Part shown: positions 10,701 to 60,258 of the stretch, one piece after another
Layout of the letters: the number at the start of each line of letters is the position of its first letter
Position numbering within the stretch: the first letter of the stretch is position 1
From: Octopus sinensis
Taxonomy: Eukaryota
Reading direction: 5' to 3'
DNA: 64,000 nt
Assembly: GCF_006345805.1 (NCBI RefSeq)
Contig: NC_043014.1
Coordinates: forward strand, 8,680,001 to 8,744,000
Position numbers and translations under genes: made by a program
Notes under the pieces: generated by a model
The model's database searches: none
What the model was told of the DNA's origin: nothing
Seen by the model: only the letters and a program-made list of their open reading frames with translations

Positions 10701-10971
10701 AATATATATACTGTTGTGTCTGGGGAGAGTCATTTTCTTTTTGTGCCTTAAACACGAAGACTGCTGTAGGAACAACAAGCAGGTGTATTAGTTTGACACT
10801 CGCGAAAAATGGAAAAGTTTTTTACGTTTCAAACCTACGCTCTTCGACAGAAAGGGATAAGAGGAAATAAACAGAGAGAGAGAGAATGAAAAGGAAAACG
10901 TCATAAACAAGAACGCGAGGACGTGGTACATGTGAAGTATTAGCCGACGCTCAGGGAAGGAAAGAAAGGTG

Positions 10972-11006
10972 GTTTAACGTTTCGAGCAAAGCTCTTCTTC
11001 AGAAAC
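10972..11006 (-). ncRNA. Minimal type I hammerhead ribozyme motif (family 1, canonical core)
   Basis: guuu CUGAAGA a gagc-uuu-gcuc GAAA cg UU aaac. Stem I guuu/aaac, stem II gagc/gcuc, palindromic ACGU in place of stem III. Confidence 0.75.
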
Positions 11007-11165
11007 AGAGGAAAGTCCAATAAAAAACGTAGACGGGGAAAAATCGCCAACGATTCAGAAATGGTTACATTTCGAATTTCCGTTCTTTCAACATATGACC
11101 TCGTGAGCACCGCCAGCAATTTTTTTTCCTCTGTCTTCCCTTCTCGGGATCTTTCCTTCTCCTTT

Positions 11166-11200
11166 GTTTCCGACGAAGAGCTCCGCTCGAAACGTTAAAC
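11166..11200 (+). ncRNA. Minimal hammerhead motif (family 1, U4C core variant)
   Basis: guuu CCGACGA a gagc-ucc-gcuc GAAA cg UU aaac, inside a ~210-bp dispersed element. Confidence 0.65.
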
Positions 11201-11317
11201 CCTCCTTCTTCCCGTCTTTCCTGAGCGTCCAATAATACTCTATTTGTTCCACGTCCCCGCGTTGCTGTGTTTTTTTTTTGTGTTTTCTTGTTTGGATTAA
11301 CATATATATGTATATAT

Positions 11318-11607: not shown

Positions 11608-11633
<26 letters not shown>

Positions 11634-11640
<7 letters not shown>

Positions 11641-12262
11641 GTATAAAAGCCATCTCAATATGGCTAACCACAAAGGGGGGTGTTACTGTAGCTTTTAGCC
11701 CCAGGAGATCATTGTCTCCAGCTGGTTTTAGACACACTTTCTGTGCCCTTATGGTATTTGCAAAGGGAGGCCATCTCTTTCTCGTAAGCCTGAGTGATAC
11801 GCACCGGACCGCGGTTTCGAGATTATTGTCTCTTATCAGATGGCTTTTATACTTTACATTGTCGAGCGATTACTGTTTACATCTCGTTCTGAGATTTAAT
11901 AATGCTTGCAGTCAGTTTTTCGAAATCAGTGGCAGAAGTCACTAGGAAAACTCTTATATATTTGCAAACAGGCCTTGTCTTTCATCGTGATCTAGTGATT
12001 ACCGCCCGTTGATAAGAGACATTAATCTCGAAACCACGGTCCGGTGCGTATCACTCAGGCTTACGAGAAAGAGATGGCCTCCCTTTGCAAATACCTTAAG
12101 GGCACAGAAAGTGTGTCTAAAGCCAGCTGGAGACGATGATCTCCTGGGGCTAAAAAGCTACAGTAACACCTCCCTTTGTGGTTAGCCATATTGAGATGGC
12201 TTTTATACTTTACATTGTCGAGCGATAACTGTTTACATCTCGTTCTGAGATTTAATAATGCT
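11634..12262 (+). mobile_element. Penelope-like non-autonomous element: inverted partial copy, 356-bp monomer, partial direct repeat
   Basis: 11634-11838 is the reverse complement of 12010-12215. 11839-11907 repeats directly at 12195-12262. Flanked by (TA)n. Confidence 0.75.
12003..12048 (+). ncRNA. Type I hammerhead motif with U3-A8 compensatory core (family 3)
   Basis: cgcccg UUGAUAA gaga-cauuaa-ucuc GAAA ccacgg UC cggugcg. The inverted partial copy at 11800-11838 has the perfect palindrome ACCGCGGU. Confidence 0.72.
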
Positions 12263-12650
12263 ATATATATATACACAAAACTGCACACACACACACGCAC
12301 ATACATTATAGATTTTTATATTAATGTTACAATTGATGTGTAGATGAGGGTGTGTGCTATTTAGCAGATGAAATGTGTCACAAACATATTTTAACTAACC
12401 TAAACCTTGTTTATGCCTCAGTGGTGGCATGAATCGTAATAGGTCATTGCACCAGCGAACTTTATATCATAAATCTGTTCCTTTAAACACAGTTTATTCA
12501 GCCAATGAAAATCTTCGAATTTCTTTGTTCGCTTTTTACTTTTTTCTTTTTTATTTTGTAATCTTTCCTTTGCTTTATGGTTTCTTAAAACAACAATGAA
12601 AGATTTCATTAGAAAATAGTCTGTGTTCGCCTGTCTATAGTGAATGTGTG

Positions 12651-34314: not shown

Positions 34315-34696
34315 TCTTTATATATAAAAGTGAGGTTGTGTGCTGTCTGTCTCCTACGATTTACATTCCTAACTACTCCCACATTTTGCAGTGCAGTTTA
34401 ACCAAAACCGGGTATCTTATAGTCGTGATCCATATCCAGCCCTTCTACGATGAGTCTACGATTTTAAAAAATAATTTACCATCATTTTTCCCCATTTTTA
34501 ATGCATTTTTTTGCTATTATATAAGGGAAGTAACTCTCTAAAAATTTATTATTAAATCTCAGAACGTAAAAAGCTACAGTAACTCCCCCCCCTTGTGGTT
34601 AGCCATATTGAGATGGCTATTATACTTTACATCTCTAAAAATGCTTATATAGTTATTTCCCTTACAAACCCGAGCAACGCCGGGCGATACTGCTAG
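34315..34696 (+). mobile_element. Non-autonomous Helitron carrying an 86-bp secondary insertion
   Basis: A|TCTTTATATATAAAA start, CCCGAGCAACGCCGGG hairpin and CTAG|T end. Same family as 2633-3123. Confidence 0.82.
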
Positions 34697-36585: not shown

Positions 36586-36862
36586 AGCATGTCTCTCTCT
36601 CTCTCTCTCTATTTGGTCTTGTGGCATGGAGCAAATTCAACTTGCAATGAAAGTAAGGAGATGTGAGTTCGATCCTCATAGCTGGCCTGTAACGACTTTT
36701 TCTGCAATATATGGACAATTTATCCTGTTCATGTTATTGTATTAGCATTACCATGCATTTGAGAATAAATTATTTCTGTATCTTTCAATACATCTCAACA
36801 CTTCTAAAGCAAACTTAGCTTACTTTCATCATAAGTTGAATATATATATATATATATATATA

Positions 36863-37343
36863 TACGTGAATTATGGAATGGGGTAGGTAAGTTCTGGGTT
36901 ACGTATGTCTCATAGCAGGTGGAACCTCAGAAGTGGTAAATATCCAAGTGAGGTGTATAACGCAGGCTACTTTTCAGCGCAAGGATATTTTGATTAAATT
37001 AAATATATGTAAAGTATACTAGCCATCTCAACATGGCTAAGCATTAAGGGTGGGTGTTACTGTAGCTTTTAGCCCCAGGAGATCATCGTCTCTAGCTGGC
37101 TTTAGGCACACTTTCTGTGCCCTTATGGTATTTGTAAAGGGACGTCATCCCTCTCTCGTAAACCTAAGTGATACGCACGGACTGCAGTTTCTAGGTATTT
37201 GCCTGTCTTCGGCGTACGGCAGTCACCGGTTTACGATGAAAGGGAGACCTGTTTGCAAATACTTACAGGTTTTTCTAGTAACTTCTGTCACTGATTTCAA
37301 AAAACTGTCTGCAAGCAATAATAAATCTCTGAACGAGATGTAA

Positions 37344-37376
<33 letters not shown>

Positions 37377-37860
37377 CGTGAATTATGGAATGGGGTAGGT
37401 AAGTTCTGGGTTACGTATGTCTCATAGCAGGTGGAACCTCAGAAGTGGTAAATATCCAAGTGAGGTGTATAACGCAGGCTACTTTTCAGCGCAAGGATAT
37501 TTTGATTAAATTAAATATATGTAAAGTATACTAGCCATCTCAACATGGCTAAGCATTAAGGGTGGGTGTTACTGTAGCTTTTAGCCCCAGGAGATCATCG
37601 TCTCTAGCTGGCTTTAGGCACACTTTCTGTGCCCTTATGGTATTTGTAAAGGGACGTCATCCCTCTCTCGTAAACCTAAGTGATACGCACGGACTGCAGT
37701 TCTAGGTATTTGCCTGTCTTCGGCGTACGGCAGTCACCGGTTTACGATGAAAGGGAGACCTGTTTGCAAATACTTACAGGTTTTTCTAGTAACTTCTGTC
37801 ACTGATTTCAAAAAACTGTCTGCAAGCAATAATAAATCTCTGAACGAGATGTAAATATAT
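36863..37860. repeat. Near-identical tandem duplication, 512-bp period, bounded by (TA)n
   Basis: Units start TACGTGAATTATGG at 36863 and 37375. Confidence 0.92.
37174..37218 (-). ncRNA. Type I hammerhead motif (family 3, U4C variant)
   Basis: cguacg CCGAAGA c agg-caaaua-ccu a GAAA cugcag UC cgugcg. Second copy at 37686-37729 lacks one core A. Confidence 0.65.
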
Positions 37861-39152
37861 ATATATATACATATATATATATTTATGTATATACCAAATC
37901 CGCTCACAAGGCTTTGGTCAGCTGAGGCTATAGTAGAAGACATTTGCCCAAGCTGCCATGCAGTGGAACTGAACCTGGAACCATGTAGTTGGGAGGCAAG
38001 CTTCTTACCACACAGCCACACCAGTAACTTAATCTTGTGTCATCTCATAGCTTCAAAATTTTGATGATATGATTGCATATTTTTTAGAATGACACTGTAG
38101 GGTCGACGTTAGAGGCTAGAACTGGCTGTTTTGAGCAGAAAATAGTGAGAATATTTGGGTCAGCTATGGCTGGTTCGAATGCTGAAGGGTTATGCCAGCA
38201 GAGAAAGGGGTGTGAATAGTAGAATATCAGAACTAGTTATTTCATGCAACAAATTTTGGAGTCTCGTACATGTAAATTCACAACCATTATGAAATCAAGT
38301 GCACTGTTAATATTCCCTGGGTCCATGAAATAAATAATAGTACAGTTATGCAGGATGGGGCTGGCCAGATTGGAGCAATCTTGAGTATAACCAGCCGAAA
38401 TTGCAAAGATAATCTGGAACTCAACTGAGGAAACAAAACTTCGAATGACCCGCCATGTTTTTTCTTGTCTCTTTTTTGTATACCTTTATATATATATAAT
38501 GTGTGTGTCTATATATATGTCTATATATGTATATATATATATAGGTGTGTGTGTCACCTTCGAAACATGCTGGAGTTGAACTAGAGACAGCTGATGAAGG
38601 GGAATTTTCCTTGTGTAGTTTGTCTTGTACTCTGTTTTTTCGTTGTTAAAAAAGGTCCGTTTCCATGTTTGTTTTTACGTTTTCGTTTCTCATTGAGTTC
38701 TACGTCTATTTGTGGTGTCCTGTACTCACGTATATATATATTTATATATGCATGTATATATACATGTAGATGTAGGTACGTACATATATGTATGCATATC
38801 ATCATCATTTAGCGTCCGTTCTCCATGCTAGCATGGGTTGGACGGTTCAACTGGGGTCTGTGAAGCTGGAAGGCTTCATCAGGCCCAGTCAGATCTGGCT
38901 GGATGCCCTTCCTAATGCATATATTTTATTTATTACACTATATATATATATATAGTAAGAGGAGGGGTATAATATTCAGGCAGATACTGAATTTCTCTAT
39001 GTAAAATGCCAAGGCTGGTTCCTTCATATGGTATAATGATGGTTTTGATAGTTATAATTAATGCGATTGAAATACGTGTTGGACAATTATTATGAATAAA
39101 CAAACTGTAAATAGACAAAGTTTGTTCAAATTCTTCATTCTCCTTATTATCA

Positions 39153-43056: not shown

Positions 43057-45627
43057 TCAAAGAAACGAGGCTTGACCAATTATATTCTTCAGTTCATTGG
43101 CAACTCTAAATACCTCTTTGACTCGATTGACCATGTCCTGCACTGCCGGCACAGATGGATAATATATTGCAGCTGTTTTAGTAGCTGCGACTGTTGATTT
43201 GAGATTGTTGCACAGTAGCGTTGTGCAGTGCATGATGCGATTGCGGAAGTCGGTGTCCATTAAATTCCGATGAAGCGTGTCGCCGATGTACACCATTTTC
43301 GTGGCGGACAACACAACAAATTTGCTGTTGGAAATAAACACTTTTGGAGTTTGGATGCTGTCGATGCAGTTGTAGAAAGCCTCGATGGAGTTGTTGAGTA
43401 ACGTATAGTGCGTGTTCATCTGTTCCGAGTAATAAAGCAAAACTTGCCGGTCGTTGGGGGCCAAGCGCTTCATATAGAAATTGTTCTCGGATACAAGACC
43501 CCCATTTACGTTTGAGTTGTAACCTGAGACATCAGTGTTGCTTGGGGTATTCACTGGTGTCTTTAGCTCCTGGTCAAAATCTATTTCAAGGGACTTCGAT
43601 AACGATACATAATCAAGTCCTCGGCTGATGTCCTGAACCTCTTTTGAATACTCTGTTGAATTAGCCAATGTCAACGATGAATCAACATCTGATCGGTTGT
43701 TGATCTCTTTGGTCCCCGTGGAAAGATTTAAGAGGCTATTTGACCCTAATTGCATAGAGTTGATGGCTGCTTCTAATGAGGATACAGGGTCGTTAAGCTT
43801 ATTTGGTTCAGATTTTTCATTGCCCTTTTGAGATTGTTTTGAAGGGACATCTGTTGAAGGGGTCACTACTTTATCAGGGCTTGGGTCCCGTGTTTCCAGT
43901 TGAACATAATCATATTCCAGAAAGTCTAAGGAGTCTGGGTCCTCCTTCTTGGAGACGTTTATTATCACAGGTGACCTTTTTGAAGGTATCGTATCTGGCT
44001 TGGTCAGCAACGTCAGCTGGGAAGGAGTAGGAGGGAGTGGCCGGTTGACTGGGGGTGGAGGAGGGAGAGGGCGGTTCTGAACACTGCCGCTACTGTGACG
44101 GCGACCATGGATACTCCTTGAGAATGCCTCCATGCTTCCAATACTACCTGACTTGGTCGGCACTGGTACTACTATACTATCAGTTTTGTTGAAATCCGTT
44201 TGAGATCCAGAAATGTCAGAATTCTTGAAGAGAAGCACAGAGTTTCCCTGAATAAACGAGGCAAGGTTGCGGACGTCAATCGTAAGCGTTTTGGAAAGGT
44301 TGGCGATCTTTCCTAAATCGTCGTCCTTAGCACCGTTGCTGCTCACCAGCAGATTTATCTGCCACTGGATTGCAGAAAGATTCCTGATGCTAAGCAAAAT
44401 CTGTTGTAAGGCCTGCTGAAGAGGCGTCAGCAACTTGTACAGTTTATTCACAAGTTTACGGTCACATTTGCTGACAGAATTTGCTAGAGTACCCTCAGCA
44501 AATTCTACAAAGTCAGCCAAAGACATCTGCATGTTATCGGCAGCTGCTCTAATGTCATGGAGATTTGGTTCCAAATTATTTCTCTGGCGCCAAGAACTAC
44601 TGATAAAGGGCGACATTTTGTTGATGGCTCTCAGGACATCTTGCTGTCTCTTGACCAGCAGATCCATAGCCACATCTTGTGCGAGTGGAAGTTCATTGTA
44701 AATGGGGATGTCGGAGCCCCGTGACCCCGTGCTACAGGAAGAGAGTCGGCCGGCATCTTGACCATCTGAAGAATCGGATTTGGCAGAAATCAAAGAGTCA
44801 CGAGTCACTTGTGGAGGAATATCATAAACAGAAGATGCAGCTGTAATTATTGGCTTGTTATGAGGTGACGCAGCATTTGTCTTTTTACCAACAGGTGGTG
44901 TTGCAGTTGTCGCACCTGGAATTTTCTTTGGCTCATTGTTTGAACCTGCATTTTTAGGTGTGTCATAGAGTTCTCCAAGATCCTGTTCAAATGCGAGGGA
45001 TGGCATATCAAAGTTGTTGGACGGTGGTTCAACAGGGGGCAGATCGTAATCTTCAAATGCTGACTTGGGGACATCATAGTCATCCATGATTGCTGAATTG
45101 GAAGGTGATGGCGATGTCTTTGTATGCGAGGGTGGAGTATCATACAAGTCTAGAACTGAGTCAAACTGTTGCTTTAAGTTATGAGGAAGATGGTCAGGTG
45201 GAACGTCGTAAACAGCAGAAGCGTCCAGACTGGACCGAGCAGAATCGCAGAGGCTGGATGTGTTTGATGATCGTGGAAGACTCTGGTTAGATGCACTGCT
45301 GGATAAAGTCATAGTGGACTCGGTTGATTTGAAAGATGCCATGCTTGATCGGTTAGATGGCGGCACATCATAGGTGTCACAGTCGTTTGAAAGGAAACTT
45401 TTAAAAGAACTGTCTGCCGGTAGAGACGTTGAAGGATAATTGCAGATAGACTGATCTGGTGACTGGTCGAACCTTCTCTCTTTTGGAGTGTCATAGTTGG
45501 CTTGCAGATCAGAGTTGGAATCTGATTTGCCAATCGACTGTGGTGGAGGTACATCATAATCTTCCGGAGTGTGCCGAGCAGGTGGGTGGTCATATGTTGG
45601 GCCTCCAGGGTCAGCTTGTTGACCAAC
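43057..45627 (-). CDS. BCAR1: Cas-family adaptor (BCAR1/p130Cas-like), terminal coding exon: YDxP substrate domain, serine-rich helical bundle, Src-binding region, C-terminal FAT-like domain
   Basis: 856-codon open frame after a TTTTCCAG|GTT acceptor. Ten YDxP motifs, two RPLPP motifs, EYDYVQL (human YDYVHL) and C-terminal KFVVLSATKMVYIGDTL typical of Cas proteins. TGA stop at 43057-43059. Phase is compatible with direct splicing to the SH3 exon. Confidence 0.93.
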   Translation of the reverse strand, partial: VGQQADPGGPTYDHPPARHTPEDYDVPPPQSIGKSDSNSDLQANYDTPKERRFDQSPDQSICNYPSTSLPADSSFKSFLSNDCDTYDVPPSNRSSMASFKSTESTMTLSSSASNQSLPRSSNTSSLCDSARSSLDASAVYDVPPDHLPHNLKQQFDSVLDLYDTPPSHTKTSPSPSNSAIMDDYDVPKSAFEDYDLPPVEPPSNNFDMPSLAFEQDLGELYDTPKNAGSNNEPKKIPGATTATPPVGKKTNAASPHNKPIITAASSVYDIPPQVTRDSLISAKSDSSDGQDAGRLSSCSTGSRGSDIPIYNELPLAQDVAMDLLVKRQQDVLRAINKMSPFISSSWRQRNNLEPNLHDIRAAADNMQMSLADFVEFAEGTLANSVSKCDRKLVNKLYKLLTPLQQALQQILLSIRNLSAIQWQINLLVSSNGAKDDDLGKIANLSKTLTIDVRNLASFIQGNSVLLFKNSDISGSQTDFNKTDSIVVPVPTKSGSIGSMEAFSRSIHGRRHSSGSVQNRPLPPPPPVNRPLPPTPSQLTLLTKPDTIPSKRSPVIINVSKKEDPDSLDFLEYDYVQLETRDPSPDKVVTPSTDVPSKQSQKGNEKSEPNKLNDPVSSLEAAINSMQLGSNSLLNLSTGTKEINNRSDVDSSLTLANSTEYSKEVQDISRGLDYVSLSKSLEIDFDQELKTPVNTPSNTDVSGYNSNVNGGLVSENNFYMKRLAPNDRQVLLYYSEQMNTHYTLLNNSIEAFYNCIDSIQTPKVFISNSKFVVLSATKMVYIGDTLHRNLMDTDFRNRIMHCTTLLCNNLKSTVAATKTAAIYYPSVPAVQDMVNRVKEVFRVANELKNIIGQASFL

Positions 45628-46524
45628 CTGGAAAATAAAAAAAAAATAAAAAGAATTATTAAATTTTTCTGAATGGTTATAAAATAACAAGCAATAAAAT
45701 AATTTTAAAATCTGTTTTAAAGTTTGGAAACTGTACTGAGGGCCTTAAAGGGGAAAAACTCCCTTTAGTCATGAATGAACATGGGATTGCGCCTAGAAAG
45801 TTACCCTTTGAGGCATAAGTAGGGGCAAGGTTGTTTATGGAAGACAGCAAACGCCTGCCCATGCATACCAGCCCCTCCTCTCCACACCACTGATGTTATC
45901 CAAGGGAAAAGCAAAGGCTGGTACAGCTTGGCACCAGTGATGTTGCAACTCATTTCTACAGATGAGCAAACTGGAGCAACATGAAATAAAGTGTCTTGCT
46001 CAAGAACACAACACAGCCCAGCCTTGGAATCAAACTCACTATCTATTGATTGTGAGCCCAATGATCTAACCATGGAGCCATATGCCTGGGCCTTAATTAC
46101 ATGTCAACTGTGTGTGTGTGTGTGTCTGTGTGTAAATACAAAATGGGACAACAACACATCCAGATAGGCAATACAATGAAAACAAGGATGGGTCATTTGG
46201 AGTTTTCTTTCCTCAGTCAAGTACCACATTATCTTCGCAATTTCAGGTGATTATACTTGAGATTGCTCTAATCTGGCTAGCCCCAAAGAAAAACTAAGCT
46301 AAGAGCATTAGATTCCTTGGGAGAAAGCAGCGAATGTATACGAAAACAAGGACGGAAAAAGGGACGATGTTACACAAATACAATAAAAACAATAACAGGA
46401 CATATATATATATATATACATTTATATATATATAGGAGAGTTTACGAAAAAAACAAAAGACGAAGACAGGTGGTGTACAAAACAAACAGATGTATTAGTA
46501 TAACGCTCAGGAATAGAAAAAAGT

Positions 46525-55712: not shown

Positions 55713-56774
55713 TATATGAGTCACCATGATAGATCGTTAGCCACTTCACACATTTTTTTTCTCTCCTTGTTTTTTCTGTGTCCCTTTCTGTAGAAGAGCG
55801 TAGGCTCAAAACGTAAAGGATTTTTTCTATTCCTGAGCATTATACTAATACATCTGTTTGTTTTGTACACCACCTGTCTTTGTACTTTGTTTTTTTTTTC
55901 GAAAACTCTCCCTATATATATACATATATGGCGGTGCCCCAGCATGGCCACAGCTCATGAGCTGAAACTAGAATCAATCAATCAATCAATCATACATATA
56001 TATATATACATATATTGGTATGGGTGTGACTCTGTAGTAAGGGGCTTGCTTCCTAACCACATGGCACCTTGGTCAAGTGTCTTCTGCTATTGCCACAGGC
56101 TGACCAAAGTCTTGTGAGTGGATTGGGTAGAAAGGAAACTGAAAGAAGCCTGTCATATACATATATATATGTATCTGTATATGTGTGTCCTTGTGTCTGT
56201 ATTTGTCCCCTACATCACTGCTTGATAACCAGTGTTGGTGTGTTTCCGTCTCTGTAACTTAGAGGTTTGGTTAAAGACACTGATAGAATAACTTCTAGTC
56301 TTACAAAGAATAAGTCCTGAGATCGATTAGTTTGAGTAAAACCTATTTCTTTACTACCCACAAGGGGCTAAACATAGAGGGGAAAAACAAGGACAGATAA
56401 AGGTATTAAGTCGATTACATCGACCCCAGTGTGTAACTGGTACTTAATTTATCGACCCCAAAAGGATGAAAGGCAGAGTCGACCTCGGCGGAATTTGAAC
56501 TCAGAAAGTAGCGCCAGACGAAATACTGCTAAGCATTTCGCCCGGCGTGCTAACGTTTCTGCCAACTCGACGCCATGTGGTTGGGAAGCAAGCCCCCTTA
56601 CCACAGAGTCACACCCGTGCCAATATATATATATATATATATATATCATACATACATACAACACTACATACATATATATATAAAGTTAATCCAAACATGA
56701 AAGCACAAAAAAACACAAAACAACACGAGGACGTGGAACAAATAGTATTATTGGACGCTCAGGAAAGAAGGAGG

Positions 56775-56809
56775 GTTTAACGTTTCGAGCGGAGCTCTTC
56801 GTCGGAAAC
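56775..56809 (-). ncRNA. Minimal hammerhead motif (family 1, U4C variant), intronic and sense to the Cas gene
   Basis: Same motif as 11166-11200, in element 56683-56880. Confidence 0.62.
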
Positions 56810-57923
56810 ATGGGAGAAGGAAAGATCCAGAGAAGGGAAGACGGAGGAAAAAATCGCCAACGGTACACACGAGGTCACATTTTGATATGTATTTTCTTTG
56901 ACTGAAACATTTTACGGCAGTGCTCCAGCATGACCCCAGTCAAATGACTGAAACAAGTACAAAGACAAAAGAATAAGATTTCATACGACATAGATGAATC
57001 ATTTGATTGTATAATTAAGGGTAGATCCAACTACCCCCAACCAAAAGACAGATTTCATATGACCCTGATGAACCATCAGCCGATAGAATTAAGGGCTGGT
57101 CCAACCACCCCCAACCAAACACATTTCATTGATTGCAAATGCGTGGAAGACCAGTCAAATGGTCGGAGGGGTAAGGAGACTAGGGCTCTGTGTGGGTGCT
57201 GACTTGATCAGCAGAAAAGCCCTGGGACAGGGGACGTAGAATTATCAATCATTTGTAGCTCACTACTCTGTTACATCGAAAGGGACCCCCATAAAAGGAC
57301 ACAATATAAGAACATACATGAATAAGGGGTCTTCTTTTTTTTTATTTTTACACATCACTTCTTTACCTCTCCCTCCCCCTCATTTATTGTTTGAAGCTAA
57401 TCTAGGTGGTGGTAGTGGTTATTGCTGTGGTGGTGGTAGTGGTTCTGGTGATGGTGAGTGTGGCAGGGGTAGTGTTGGTGATAGTTGTCATGAAGGTGGT
57501 GGCAATGCTGAAGGAGGCGGTGATTGTAGTGATGGTGGTGAGGTTGTGGTGGTGGTGGTGGTGGTGATGATGGCCCTTTCATTTTTGCGGTTGGTTATTG
57601 CTAAAAATAGCATCCTTAATTTTTTTTCCCCTTCTGGTGGGGTTAGTAGGTCAACAGTGGTGGGGGTGTGGGGGGGCGGAGGGAATATGACTGATGTGTC
57701 TCATGGCAGTTGTCCCCTGTCGGTTATATCAGTCTGTCTGGGATTTCCCAGGGTTTTGCAAGAACAGGGGACTAAAAATAAAATGTTCACTAGACCCCAA
57801 TTAATTGATATATTAACACACTGTCTTTGTGTTTATGAGAGAGAGAGAGGGGGAGAAAGAAGGATGGAGAGGAGAGAGAGAAAGAGTGAGTGTGTATGTG
57901 AGGGGGAGGAGAGAGTGAGAGTT

Positions 57924-59352: not shown

Positions 59353-59852
59353 TATATATATATATATATATATATACATACATACATACATACACACACA
59401 CTCACATACTGGATGTGAGGGTACAAAAACACCTTGAGCATATCCGATGCACCCCTATATCAGTAGCACCTGTTTCAGAAAAAGGGAGTATTAGGGACAA
59501 AATTAGCTCAAGGAAGGCCCAACATTCCATATAGGACCCAGACTGATTTTTTGAGGCACTATTCTAACAAAAAAGAAGAAAAAAAAAAGAGTTCTCCTTA
59601 TATGCTATTAAGTACAGTGTATATATACATACATATATATGTGCGTGAGAGAGTGTATATGAATAATACACATGTGTATGAGAAGGAATGGCTTTGATAT
59701 GTATATAAATAGAAAAGAGAGGAAAACACTCTTAAAGCTGAAATTTCAGCGTGTCTTTTAAGTGCATAGATGCACATATATAAATGTGTGCGTATATATC
59801 TGTATGAGTGTGTGTGTGGATGTCTTTGTTAGTATTAATCACATCTACATAC

Positions 59853-60143
59853 CTTATTTGGTGTCACATCCCAGCTCCGTCGATGCCAGTTACTAGCGAG
59901 CGAAGAATTCATGTCAAAGCTGCTGGAATCCTTATTTGGCGTGGAGGCGAGGTTGGACATGCCAGTAAGAATTTTAAGGCGGTTTCCTGGGGCAATACCA
60001 GTCTTTCCTCGGAATGTGCACCGCCACCATCCCAGCATGCCATCCGTGTCTTGTTCAAGAACTGCGAGGACATCTCCACGCCGAAATGCAAGTTCGTTAG
60101 CGGACTCTGCTAGATTGTCATATATGGCTTTGGCAAGGGTAGT
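59853..60143 (-). CDS. BCAR1: Cas-family adaptor (BCAR1/p130Cas-like), SH3-domain coding exon (97 codons, phase 0-0)
   Basis: Translation TTLAKAIYDNLAESANELAFRRGDVLAVLEQDTDGMLGWWRCTFRGKTGIAPGNRLKIL closely resembles the p130Cas SH3 domain. Polypyrimidine tract plus TTTTGCAG acceptor just before 60143. AAG|GTATGT donor after 59853. Confidence 0.93.
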
Positions 60144-60258
60144 CTGCAAAAGAAAAAGAAGAAAGAAAAATTACATTATATATATAGATAGGTGTGTGTG
60201 TGTTCATGTGTGGATGTGTGTGTGTGTATTTATATACATATATATATATATATATATA

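What the first reader, a model, noticed from the sequence alone, without database searches (positions are those of the whole stretch)
11634..12262. Fold-back plus tandem element whose hammerhead has a compensatory U3-A8 core
Seen: an inverted partial copy, a 356-bp monomer and a 68-bp direct terminal repeat, set in (TA)n. The ribozyme core is UUGAUAA instead of CUGAUGA. Established: C3-G8 is a Watson-Crick tertiary pair in hammerheads and U3-A8 is a functional compensatory replacement. Partial-tandem plus inverted ends are a hallmark of Penelope-like insertions. Inference: the double change argues for selection on catalysis in the source element.
Basis: partly seen in the sequence, partly recalled or inferred. 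Interest (0 to 1): 0.78.

Follow-up and report, generated by a model that had tools for sequence, protein, structure and literature searches.

The report
Octopus retrozyme with known U3-A8 hammerhead
This is one decayed copy of a common, protein-free octopus repeat that carries a self-cutting-RNA motif with an already described core variant and was likely pasted in by a Penelope retrotransposon enzyme, so it is an ordinary member of a known kind.

Summary
In detail: a 205-nt inverted arm, a 356-nt monomer plus a 69-nt direct repeat, (TA)n on both sides, and a type I hammerhead motif with core UUGAUAA (12009-12015). The window is from an Octopus species. U3-A8 is not a decay product of this copy. 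In contigs from four public runs, this copy's private changes are listed at 77-100% while positions 3 and 8 are not among the 40 listed rows (35 hidden). Helix II shows two compensatory pairs, and older relatives in the window keep C3-G8. It is not new: natural U3-A8 cores are published, including about 1,300 in Schistosoma Penelope ribozymes, and the inverted-plus-partial-tandem-plus-tail layout is the textbook Penelope footprint. Best reading: a non-autonomous, Penelope-mobilised non-LTR retrozyme. This locus is probably inert: it has one complete ribozyme, a broken helix III palindrome and a fold-back predicted to mask it. This scan has already noted four U3-A8 retrozymes in other genomes and at least eight hammerhead retrozyme loci in this genome.

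The parts
11610..11635 (.). (TA)n target tract, left flank; it hides any target-site duplication
11634..11838 (-). Inverted, 5'-truncated arm (= monomer 12010-12215). It carries the ribozyme from U4 onward with A8 and the intact helix III palindrome ACCGCGGT; its 3' end is at family end-site A
11838..11839 (.). Head-to-head junction of the two arms, 1-nt overlap
11838..11906 (+). First copy of the 69-nt direct repeat (pseudo-LTR-like partial tandem)
11907..12262 (+). One full 356-nt monomer, 43% GC, no long ORF, predicted strongly self-paired as a circle
   Evidence: circular MFE -110.4, shuffle mean -82.8, z -4.9, 0 of 100 shuffles as low; six-frame translation
11995..12054 (+). Type I hammerhead motif: helix I 11995-12008/12042-12054, helix II 12016-12029, short helix III 12033-12040, predicted cut after C17 (12041)
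12009..12015 (+). Core UUGAUAA, with U3 at 12009 and A8 at 12014
12184..12201 (+). Small hairpin just upstream of end-site A; the forward arm's 5' truncation falls at the equivalent place (speculative RT stall or binding site)
12216..12262 (+). 47-nt 'tail' between end-site A (12215) and end-site B (12259-12262)
12262..12273 (.). (TA)n target tract, right flank

Best explanation
The locus is a single insertion of a 356-nt, non-coding, hammerhead-bearing repeat (a non-LTR retrozyme) whose subfamily carries U3-A8, and it was likely copied into a (TA)n tract by a borrowed Penelope reverse transcriptase/endonuclease. Shown: the two arms point outward from a central junction; they end at two sites 47 nt apart that other family copies also use; both arms run across the predicted cut site; the forward arm is 1.19 monomers long. 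Inferred: tandem source copies are transcribed, cut by dimeric hammerheads (palindromic helix III) and ligated into circles. The Penelope protein would nick both strands of the AT-rich target and prime one cDNA at each site on an uncut multimer or a circle, and the two 5'-truncated cDNAs would be joined head to head. U3-A8 likely arose once in a source lineage and was kept because it preserves the 3-8 core pair. This copy is likely inert.
For: Anatomy. Shared ends: the inverted arm, c37a/b (one duplicated copy) and c34 all stop at the 12215 position, and c34's inverted arm stops at the 12259 position. The family sequence closes on itself (12260-12262 joined to 11907-11913) in 4 of 4 runs. U3-A8 as subfamily letters: private changes 12022 (100%), 11994 (95-100%) and 12036 (77-99%) are listed in 4 of 4 runs, while 12009 and 12014 are not among the 40 rows shown. 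Contigs spanning the core at depth 1075, 1018, 172 and 157 have only 1-2 other letters, which 12022 and 12036 account for. Compensatory A-U to G-C pairs 12017/12028 and 12019/12026 have equal or near-equal depths in 4 of 4 runs. Three in-window subfamily copies give 4 pairs changed on both sides, including 3-8 (small n). Helix III is a perfect palindrome in the inverted arm and in c37a, and self-complementary through G-U in c16. Literature: PMC8557442, PMC11167929 (two RT start sites give the tail; both strands of AT-rich DNA are cut), PMC7229834, bioRxiv 10.64898/2026.07.22.740005.
Against: No genome was available, so no autonomous partner or multi-unit array of this family was seen. In one search, 35 variant rows were hidden. 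One search listed no differences outside 12017-12028 (it missed the known 11998 and 12036), so it is blind at positions 3 and 8. The bound on C3/G8 is therefore only 'minority, probably under about 10-15%', and laying at 80% likeness favours copies like the query. The runs hold at most 0.36 of the locus words and may be from other species than the window's. Most loose ends at 12215 share one flank (the c34 type), so they are not independent insertions. In Anolis Poseidon, ribozyme-dead RNA still inserts in vitro (PMC11167929), so cleavage may not be what selection acts on. The hammerhead fold (-10.8) is not the monomer's predicted minimum (-17.3).
Confidence: 0.8

Rival explanations
1. The locus is just two 5'-truncated pseudo-LTR ends of an autonomous Penelope element (solo pLTR remnant); no independent small or circular RNA exists.
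For: Most Penelope hammerheads occur as single motifs from truncated copies, also on opposite strands 100-700 bp apart (PMC4209133). Depth is far higher over 12100-12215 than over the ribozyme, as expected from 5' truncation.
Against: The sequence closes on itself at 356 nt, here and in 4 of 4 runs, with no ORF in six frames. The ribozyme has canonical-size helices rather than the minimal pLTR type. The circular fold is strong (z -4.9).
Confidence: 0.12
2. U3-A8 is a neutral or crippling founder accident: the subfamily spread as a passenger of the Penelope protein whether or not the ribozyme cuts.
For: Hammerhead mutants do not impair insertion by Anolis Poseidon in vitro (PMC11167929). Only 1 of 9 Xenopus retrozyme dimers cleaved (bioRxiv). 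One founder can fix two changes.
Against: Two further compensatory pairs arose in helix II within the U3-A8 subfamily, the helix III palindrome is kept, and the two changed bases are exactly the known tertiary pair (PMC3088659).
Confidence: 0.15
3. The fold-back arose after insertion, by local DNA repair or template switching in the (TA)n tract, not during retrotransposition.
For: (TA)n tracts are unstable, and a 512-bp local duplication of a relative exists at 36840-37886.
Against: The inverted arm ends precisely at the family end-site A used by c37 and c34, and c34 has the mirror arrangement inside a 10-bp target duplication.
Confidence: 0.05

Closest known systems
Metazoan non-LTR retrozymes (Cervera and de la Pena 2020, PMC7229834, parts 2-3 of 6 read; Li, Clavereau and Pollet 2026, bioRxiv 10.64898/2026.07.22.740005, parts 1 and 3 of 5 read), especially the 350-390 bp Mytilus family
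   Same: Non-coding monomer of 150-450 bp, GC under 50%, type I hammerhead with short palindromic helix III, head-to-tail continuity, predicted self-paired circle, proposed Penelope dependence
   Different: U3-A8 core; only 1.19 units here, plus an inverted arm; circular RNA not shown; octopus is not treated in the parts I read
Penelope-like element insertions (Craig et al. 2021, PMC8557442, passages; Frangieh et al. 2024, PMC11167929, parts 1-2 of 4)
   Same: Partial tandem, inverted 5'-truncated copy at the 5' end, optional tail from two RT start sites, AT-rich or (TA)n target, hammerhead upstream of the 3' ends
   Different: No RT/GIY-YIG ORF; the tail offset is 47 nt rather than 30-40
U3-A8 hammerheads (Schistosoma Cercyon Penelope ribozymes, PMC4209133, parts 1-2 of 4; natural covariants, PMC3088659, passages)
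   Same: The same covariation of the 3-8 core pair, in a Penelope-associated type I ribozyme
   Different: The Schistosoma motifs are minimal hammerheads in pLTRs; this one has a 4-bp helix II, a 6-nt loop 2 and a 2-bp helix III, in an octopus retrozyme-type monomer

Membership tests
Type I hammerhead ribozyme | Core NUGANNA / GAAA / UH with a Watson-Crick 3-8 pair | tested here: met
   UUGAUAA, GAAA, GUC; U3-A8
Type I hammerhead ribozyme | Helices I-III with covariation | tested here: met
   only 3 in-window sequences
Type I hammerhead ribozyme | Palindromic helix III for dimer cleavage (metazoan type) | tested here: met
   Met by the family letter G12036 and the inverted arm; broken in the forward copy (self-duplex -3.9 against -14.1 kcal/mol)
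Type I hammerhead ribozyme | Self-cleavage | not testable with these tools
   needs an assay
Non-LTR retrozyme | Non-coding 150-450 bp monomer, GC under 50% | tested here: met
   356 nt, 43% GC, no long ORF
Non-LTR retrozyme | Head-to-tail tandem organisation | tested here: inconclusive
   1.19 units here; the sequence closes on itself in 4 of 4 runs; no multi-unit array seen, no genome held
Non-LTR retrozyme | Two consecutive complete ribozymes (Li et al. criterion for an active copy) | tested here: not met
   One complete hammerhead at this locus. This concerns the activity of the copy, not family membership.
Non-LTR retrozyme | Highly self-paired monomer circle | tested here: met
   predicted only: z -4.9, 0 of 100 shuffles
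Non-LTR retrozyme | Expressed as circular RNA | not testable with these tools
   only contigs were available; 9 contigs laid in one run guessed to be RNA
Penelope-like element (autonomous) | RT plus GIY-YIG ORF | tested here: not met
   six-frame translation; no such ORF recognised by eye among the 125 window ORFs of 90 aa or more (no profile scan run)
Penelope-like element (insertion footprint) | Partial tandem plus inverted 5'-truncated copy | tested here: met
Penelope-like element (insertion footprint) | 30-40 bp tail at one end (two RT start sites) | tested here: inconclusive
   two recurring ends 44-47 nt apart, from 3 independent in-window insertions
Penelope-like element (insertion footprint) | Homology to the pLTR of an autonomous partner | not testable with these tools
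   no genome; two metagenome pattern scans gave 0 matches

The most novel reading that the evidence does not exclude
This octopus family is a natural epistasis experiment on the hammerhead core. The subfamily with the weaker U3-A8 pair has the canonical G10.1-C11.1 pair and a reshaped helix I, while the two C3-G8 relatives have a C-A mismatch at 10.1-11.1, so a weakness at one site is paid for at the other. In addition, both arms cross the cut site, which may be the footprint of a Penelope enzyme copying one religated RNA circle from both target ends.
Probability: 0.2. Interest if true: 0.5.

Novelty: new member of a known kind. Interest (0 to 1): 0.25.

Why it matters
It matters modestly. It adds an octopus family to the animal retrozymes and one more case where their insertion scars match Penelope chemistry. 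It also shows U3-A8 as a subfamily-level character beside C3-G8 sister subfamilies, which makes a convenient natural panel for testing whether ribozyme catalysis is what selection preserves in these elements. Neither the core variant nor the architecture would surprise a specialist.

Tried and rejected
Whole-genome analysis: no genome is held. Rfam: no match at gathering score; the E-value search gave mostly (TA)n miRNA noise. Two pattern scans of metagenome contigs found 0 matches. No RNA holder is on record among the 24 runs listed, which is no evidence on expression. The second read-laying was meant to read positions 3 and 8 directly, but it listed differences only in 12017-12028, so it did not tighten the bound. 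The apparent C3-A8 core in the inverted arm was rejected as a junction artefact. My first constrained fold was invalid (2-nt loop) and was redone; helix III coordinates for c37a and c16 were off by one and corrected. No tRNA gene was found in the window (bacterial settings), so there is no sign of a tRNA-SINE head. The sigma-70 promoter hits are irrelevant for a eukaryote. The original 3-8 exchange paper (PMC1986816) is not held, so no rate for U3-A8 is cited. A sequence look-up in earlier findings gave nothing. Summed contig depth was not used as a copy number.

Full report
Context. A long exon at 43057-45744 (-) encodes a BCAR1/p130Cas protein that is 95% identical to Octopus bimaculoides and 80% to Argonauta, so the window is from an Octopus species. 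The window is rich in repeats. No genome is held.

Observation. All parts are present. The inverted arm 11634-11838 equals 12010-12215 with 7 differences in 206 columns. The forward arm 11838-12262 is a 356-nt monomer plus a 69-nt direct repeat with 1 mismatch. (TA)n lies on both sides. A type I hammerhead motif spans 11995-12054: core UUGAUAA, a 4-bp helix II, GAAA, a 2-bp helix III with a tetraloop, and the cut predicted after 12041. The descriptor occurs in 1 of 20,000 shuffles of the monomer. Rfam does not call it at its thresholds. The inverted arm begins at U4, so it confirms A8 in the template but not U3.

Is U3-A8 a property of the source lineage? Older relatives in the window keep C3-G8: c16 (about 16325-16555, 73% identity) has CUGAUGA, and c37a/b (37007-37344 and its local duplicate, 83%) have CCGAAGA. 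For close relatives I laid contigs of four public runs on the monomer (3537, 2332, 3397 and 1139 contigs; organism labels A, B, A, C). Letters private to this copy appear as near-complete differences in 4 of 4 runs (12022: 100%; 11994: 95-100%; 12036: 77-99%). Positions 12009 and 12014 are absent from the 40 rows shown, which include rows at 11-16%; 35 rows are hidden. A second, narrower call (runs X2, X3, X8, X14; 47, 67, 34 and 9 contigs) listed differences only in 12017-12028 and missed known ones outside, so it is blind at the core. Its contig table, however, has pieces across the core at depth 1075, 1018, 172 and 157 with only 1-2 other letters, which 12022 and 12036 account for. By subtraction they carry U3 and A8 together. 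The same call shows two compensatory A-U to G-C swaps in helix II: 12017/12028 (depths 274/274, 227/227, 6733/6192, 6752/5168) and 12019/12026 (1816/1816, 260/260, 32/32, 1622/2862). Across the three in-window subfamily copies, 4 of 17 pairs change on both sides, the 3-8 pair among them (few sequences, and the structure was derived from one of them). U3-A8 is thus the majority state of a subfamily whose ribozyme fold kept evolving under constraint. Caveats: the laying favours query-like copies; the runs hold at most 0.36 of the locus words and may be from related species; fold constraint is not a measurement of catalysis.

How it was inserted. In ribozyme sense both outer ends are 3' ends. The inverted arm ends at 12215, as do c37a/b and the forward arm of c34; the forward arm ends at 12262, and the inverted arm of c34 at 12259. 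c34 is an 87-bp mirror-image insertion within a 10-bp target duplication. Depth falls 1.5- to 11-fold after 12218 in 4 of 4 runs, although most loose ends at 12215 share the c34 flank and count as one event. This matches the published Penelope footprint of partial tandem, inverted 5'-truncated copy and optional tail (PMC8557442, passages). It also matches the biochemistry of Anolis Poseidon, which cuts both strands of AT-rich DNA and starts reverse transcription at two adjacent internal sites (PMC11167929, parts 1-2 of 4). Both arms cross the predicted cut site and one exceeds a monomer, so the template was an uncut multimer or a religated circle (inference; these data cannot tell which). The monomer has no long ORF, is 43% GC and folds strongly as a circle (z -4.9, 0 of 100 shuffles), and its sequence closes on itself in 4 of 4 runs. 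These are the features of animal non-LTR retrozymes, such as the 350-390 bp Mytilus family (PMC7229834, parts 2-3 of 6), which are proposed to be non-autonomous Penelope derivatives (bioRxiv 10.64898/2026.07.22.740005, parts 1 and 3 of 5).

This copy. It has one complete ribozyme. Its private A12036 breaks the helix III palindrome needed for dimers (self-duplex -3.9 against -14.1 kcal/mol). A transcript through both arms is predicted to form a roughly 205-bp duplex that buries the ribozyme from U4 onward. It is likely inert.

Novelty. Natural U3-A8 covariation is described in PMC3088659 (passages), which cites in vitro activity from a paper that is not held. PMC4209133 reports about 1,300 U3-A8 motifs in Schistosoma Penelope ribozymes (parts 1-2 of 4). 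I found no paper on octopus retrozymes: 'octopus' plus 'hammerhead ribozyme' gave 5 papers, 4 listed, none on this by title or abstract start, and the 2026 O. vulgaris repeat annotation has 0 occurrences of 'ribozyme' or 'retrozyme' in its main text (PMC13282606, passages). Supplements were not read. Earlier notes of this scan list four U3-A8 retrozymes in other genomes and eight hammerhead retrozyme loci in this genome among 35 matching notes; these are unchecked leads, and my reading was written before I saw them. Verdict: real, correctly interpreted, a new member of a known kind; interest 0.25.

Noticed in passing
window 17092-18324: Minisatellite of 16.9 x 73 bp (95% matches). Units contain a minimal Penelope-type hammerhead on the minus strand with a U4C core (CCGACGA...GAAACGUU); 11 scored in my scan. 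It looks like a pLTR fragment amplified into a ribozyme array.
   Followed up: partly
window 10888-11287: A second fold-back element 350 bp upstream, of another family, with minimal hammerheads in both arms (CUGAAGA on -, CCGACGA on +). Relatives lie at 13927-14132, 56686-56883 and in the 17-18 kb array.
   Followed up: partly
window 14979-15446: Partial tandem of a third, 305-bp family with two canonical CUGAUGA type I hammerheads (15031, 15336), ending in (TA)n. Its loop 2 (CAAUAA) equals the loop 2 of the focal family.
   Followed up: partly
window 34546-34632: 87-bp two-armed mini-insertion of the focal family with a 10-bp target duplication. The same flanks recur as loose ends in 4 of 4 runs, so it was probably amplified inside another repeat.
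   Followed up: partly
window 36840-37886: Near-identical (99.4%) 512-bp local duplication that includes a family copy and its flank, bounded by (TA)n; either a recent duplication or an assembly artefact.
   Followed up: no
window 16497-16555 (-) and 37168-37226 (-): Both C3-G8 relatives have a C-A mismatch at the normally conserved 10.1-11.1 pair, whereas the U3-A8 subfamily has G-C.
   Followed up: partly
window 43057-45744 (-) and 59835-60170 (-): Exons of a BCAR1/p130Cas gene: the large C-terminal exon was confirmed; the SH3-like exon was recognised by eye only.
   Followed up: partly
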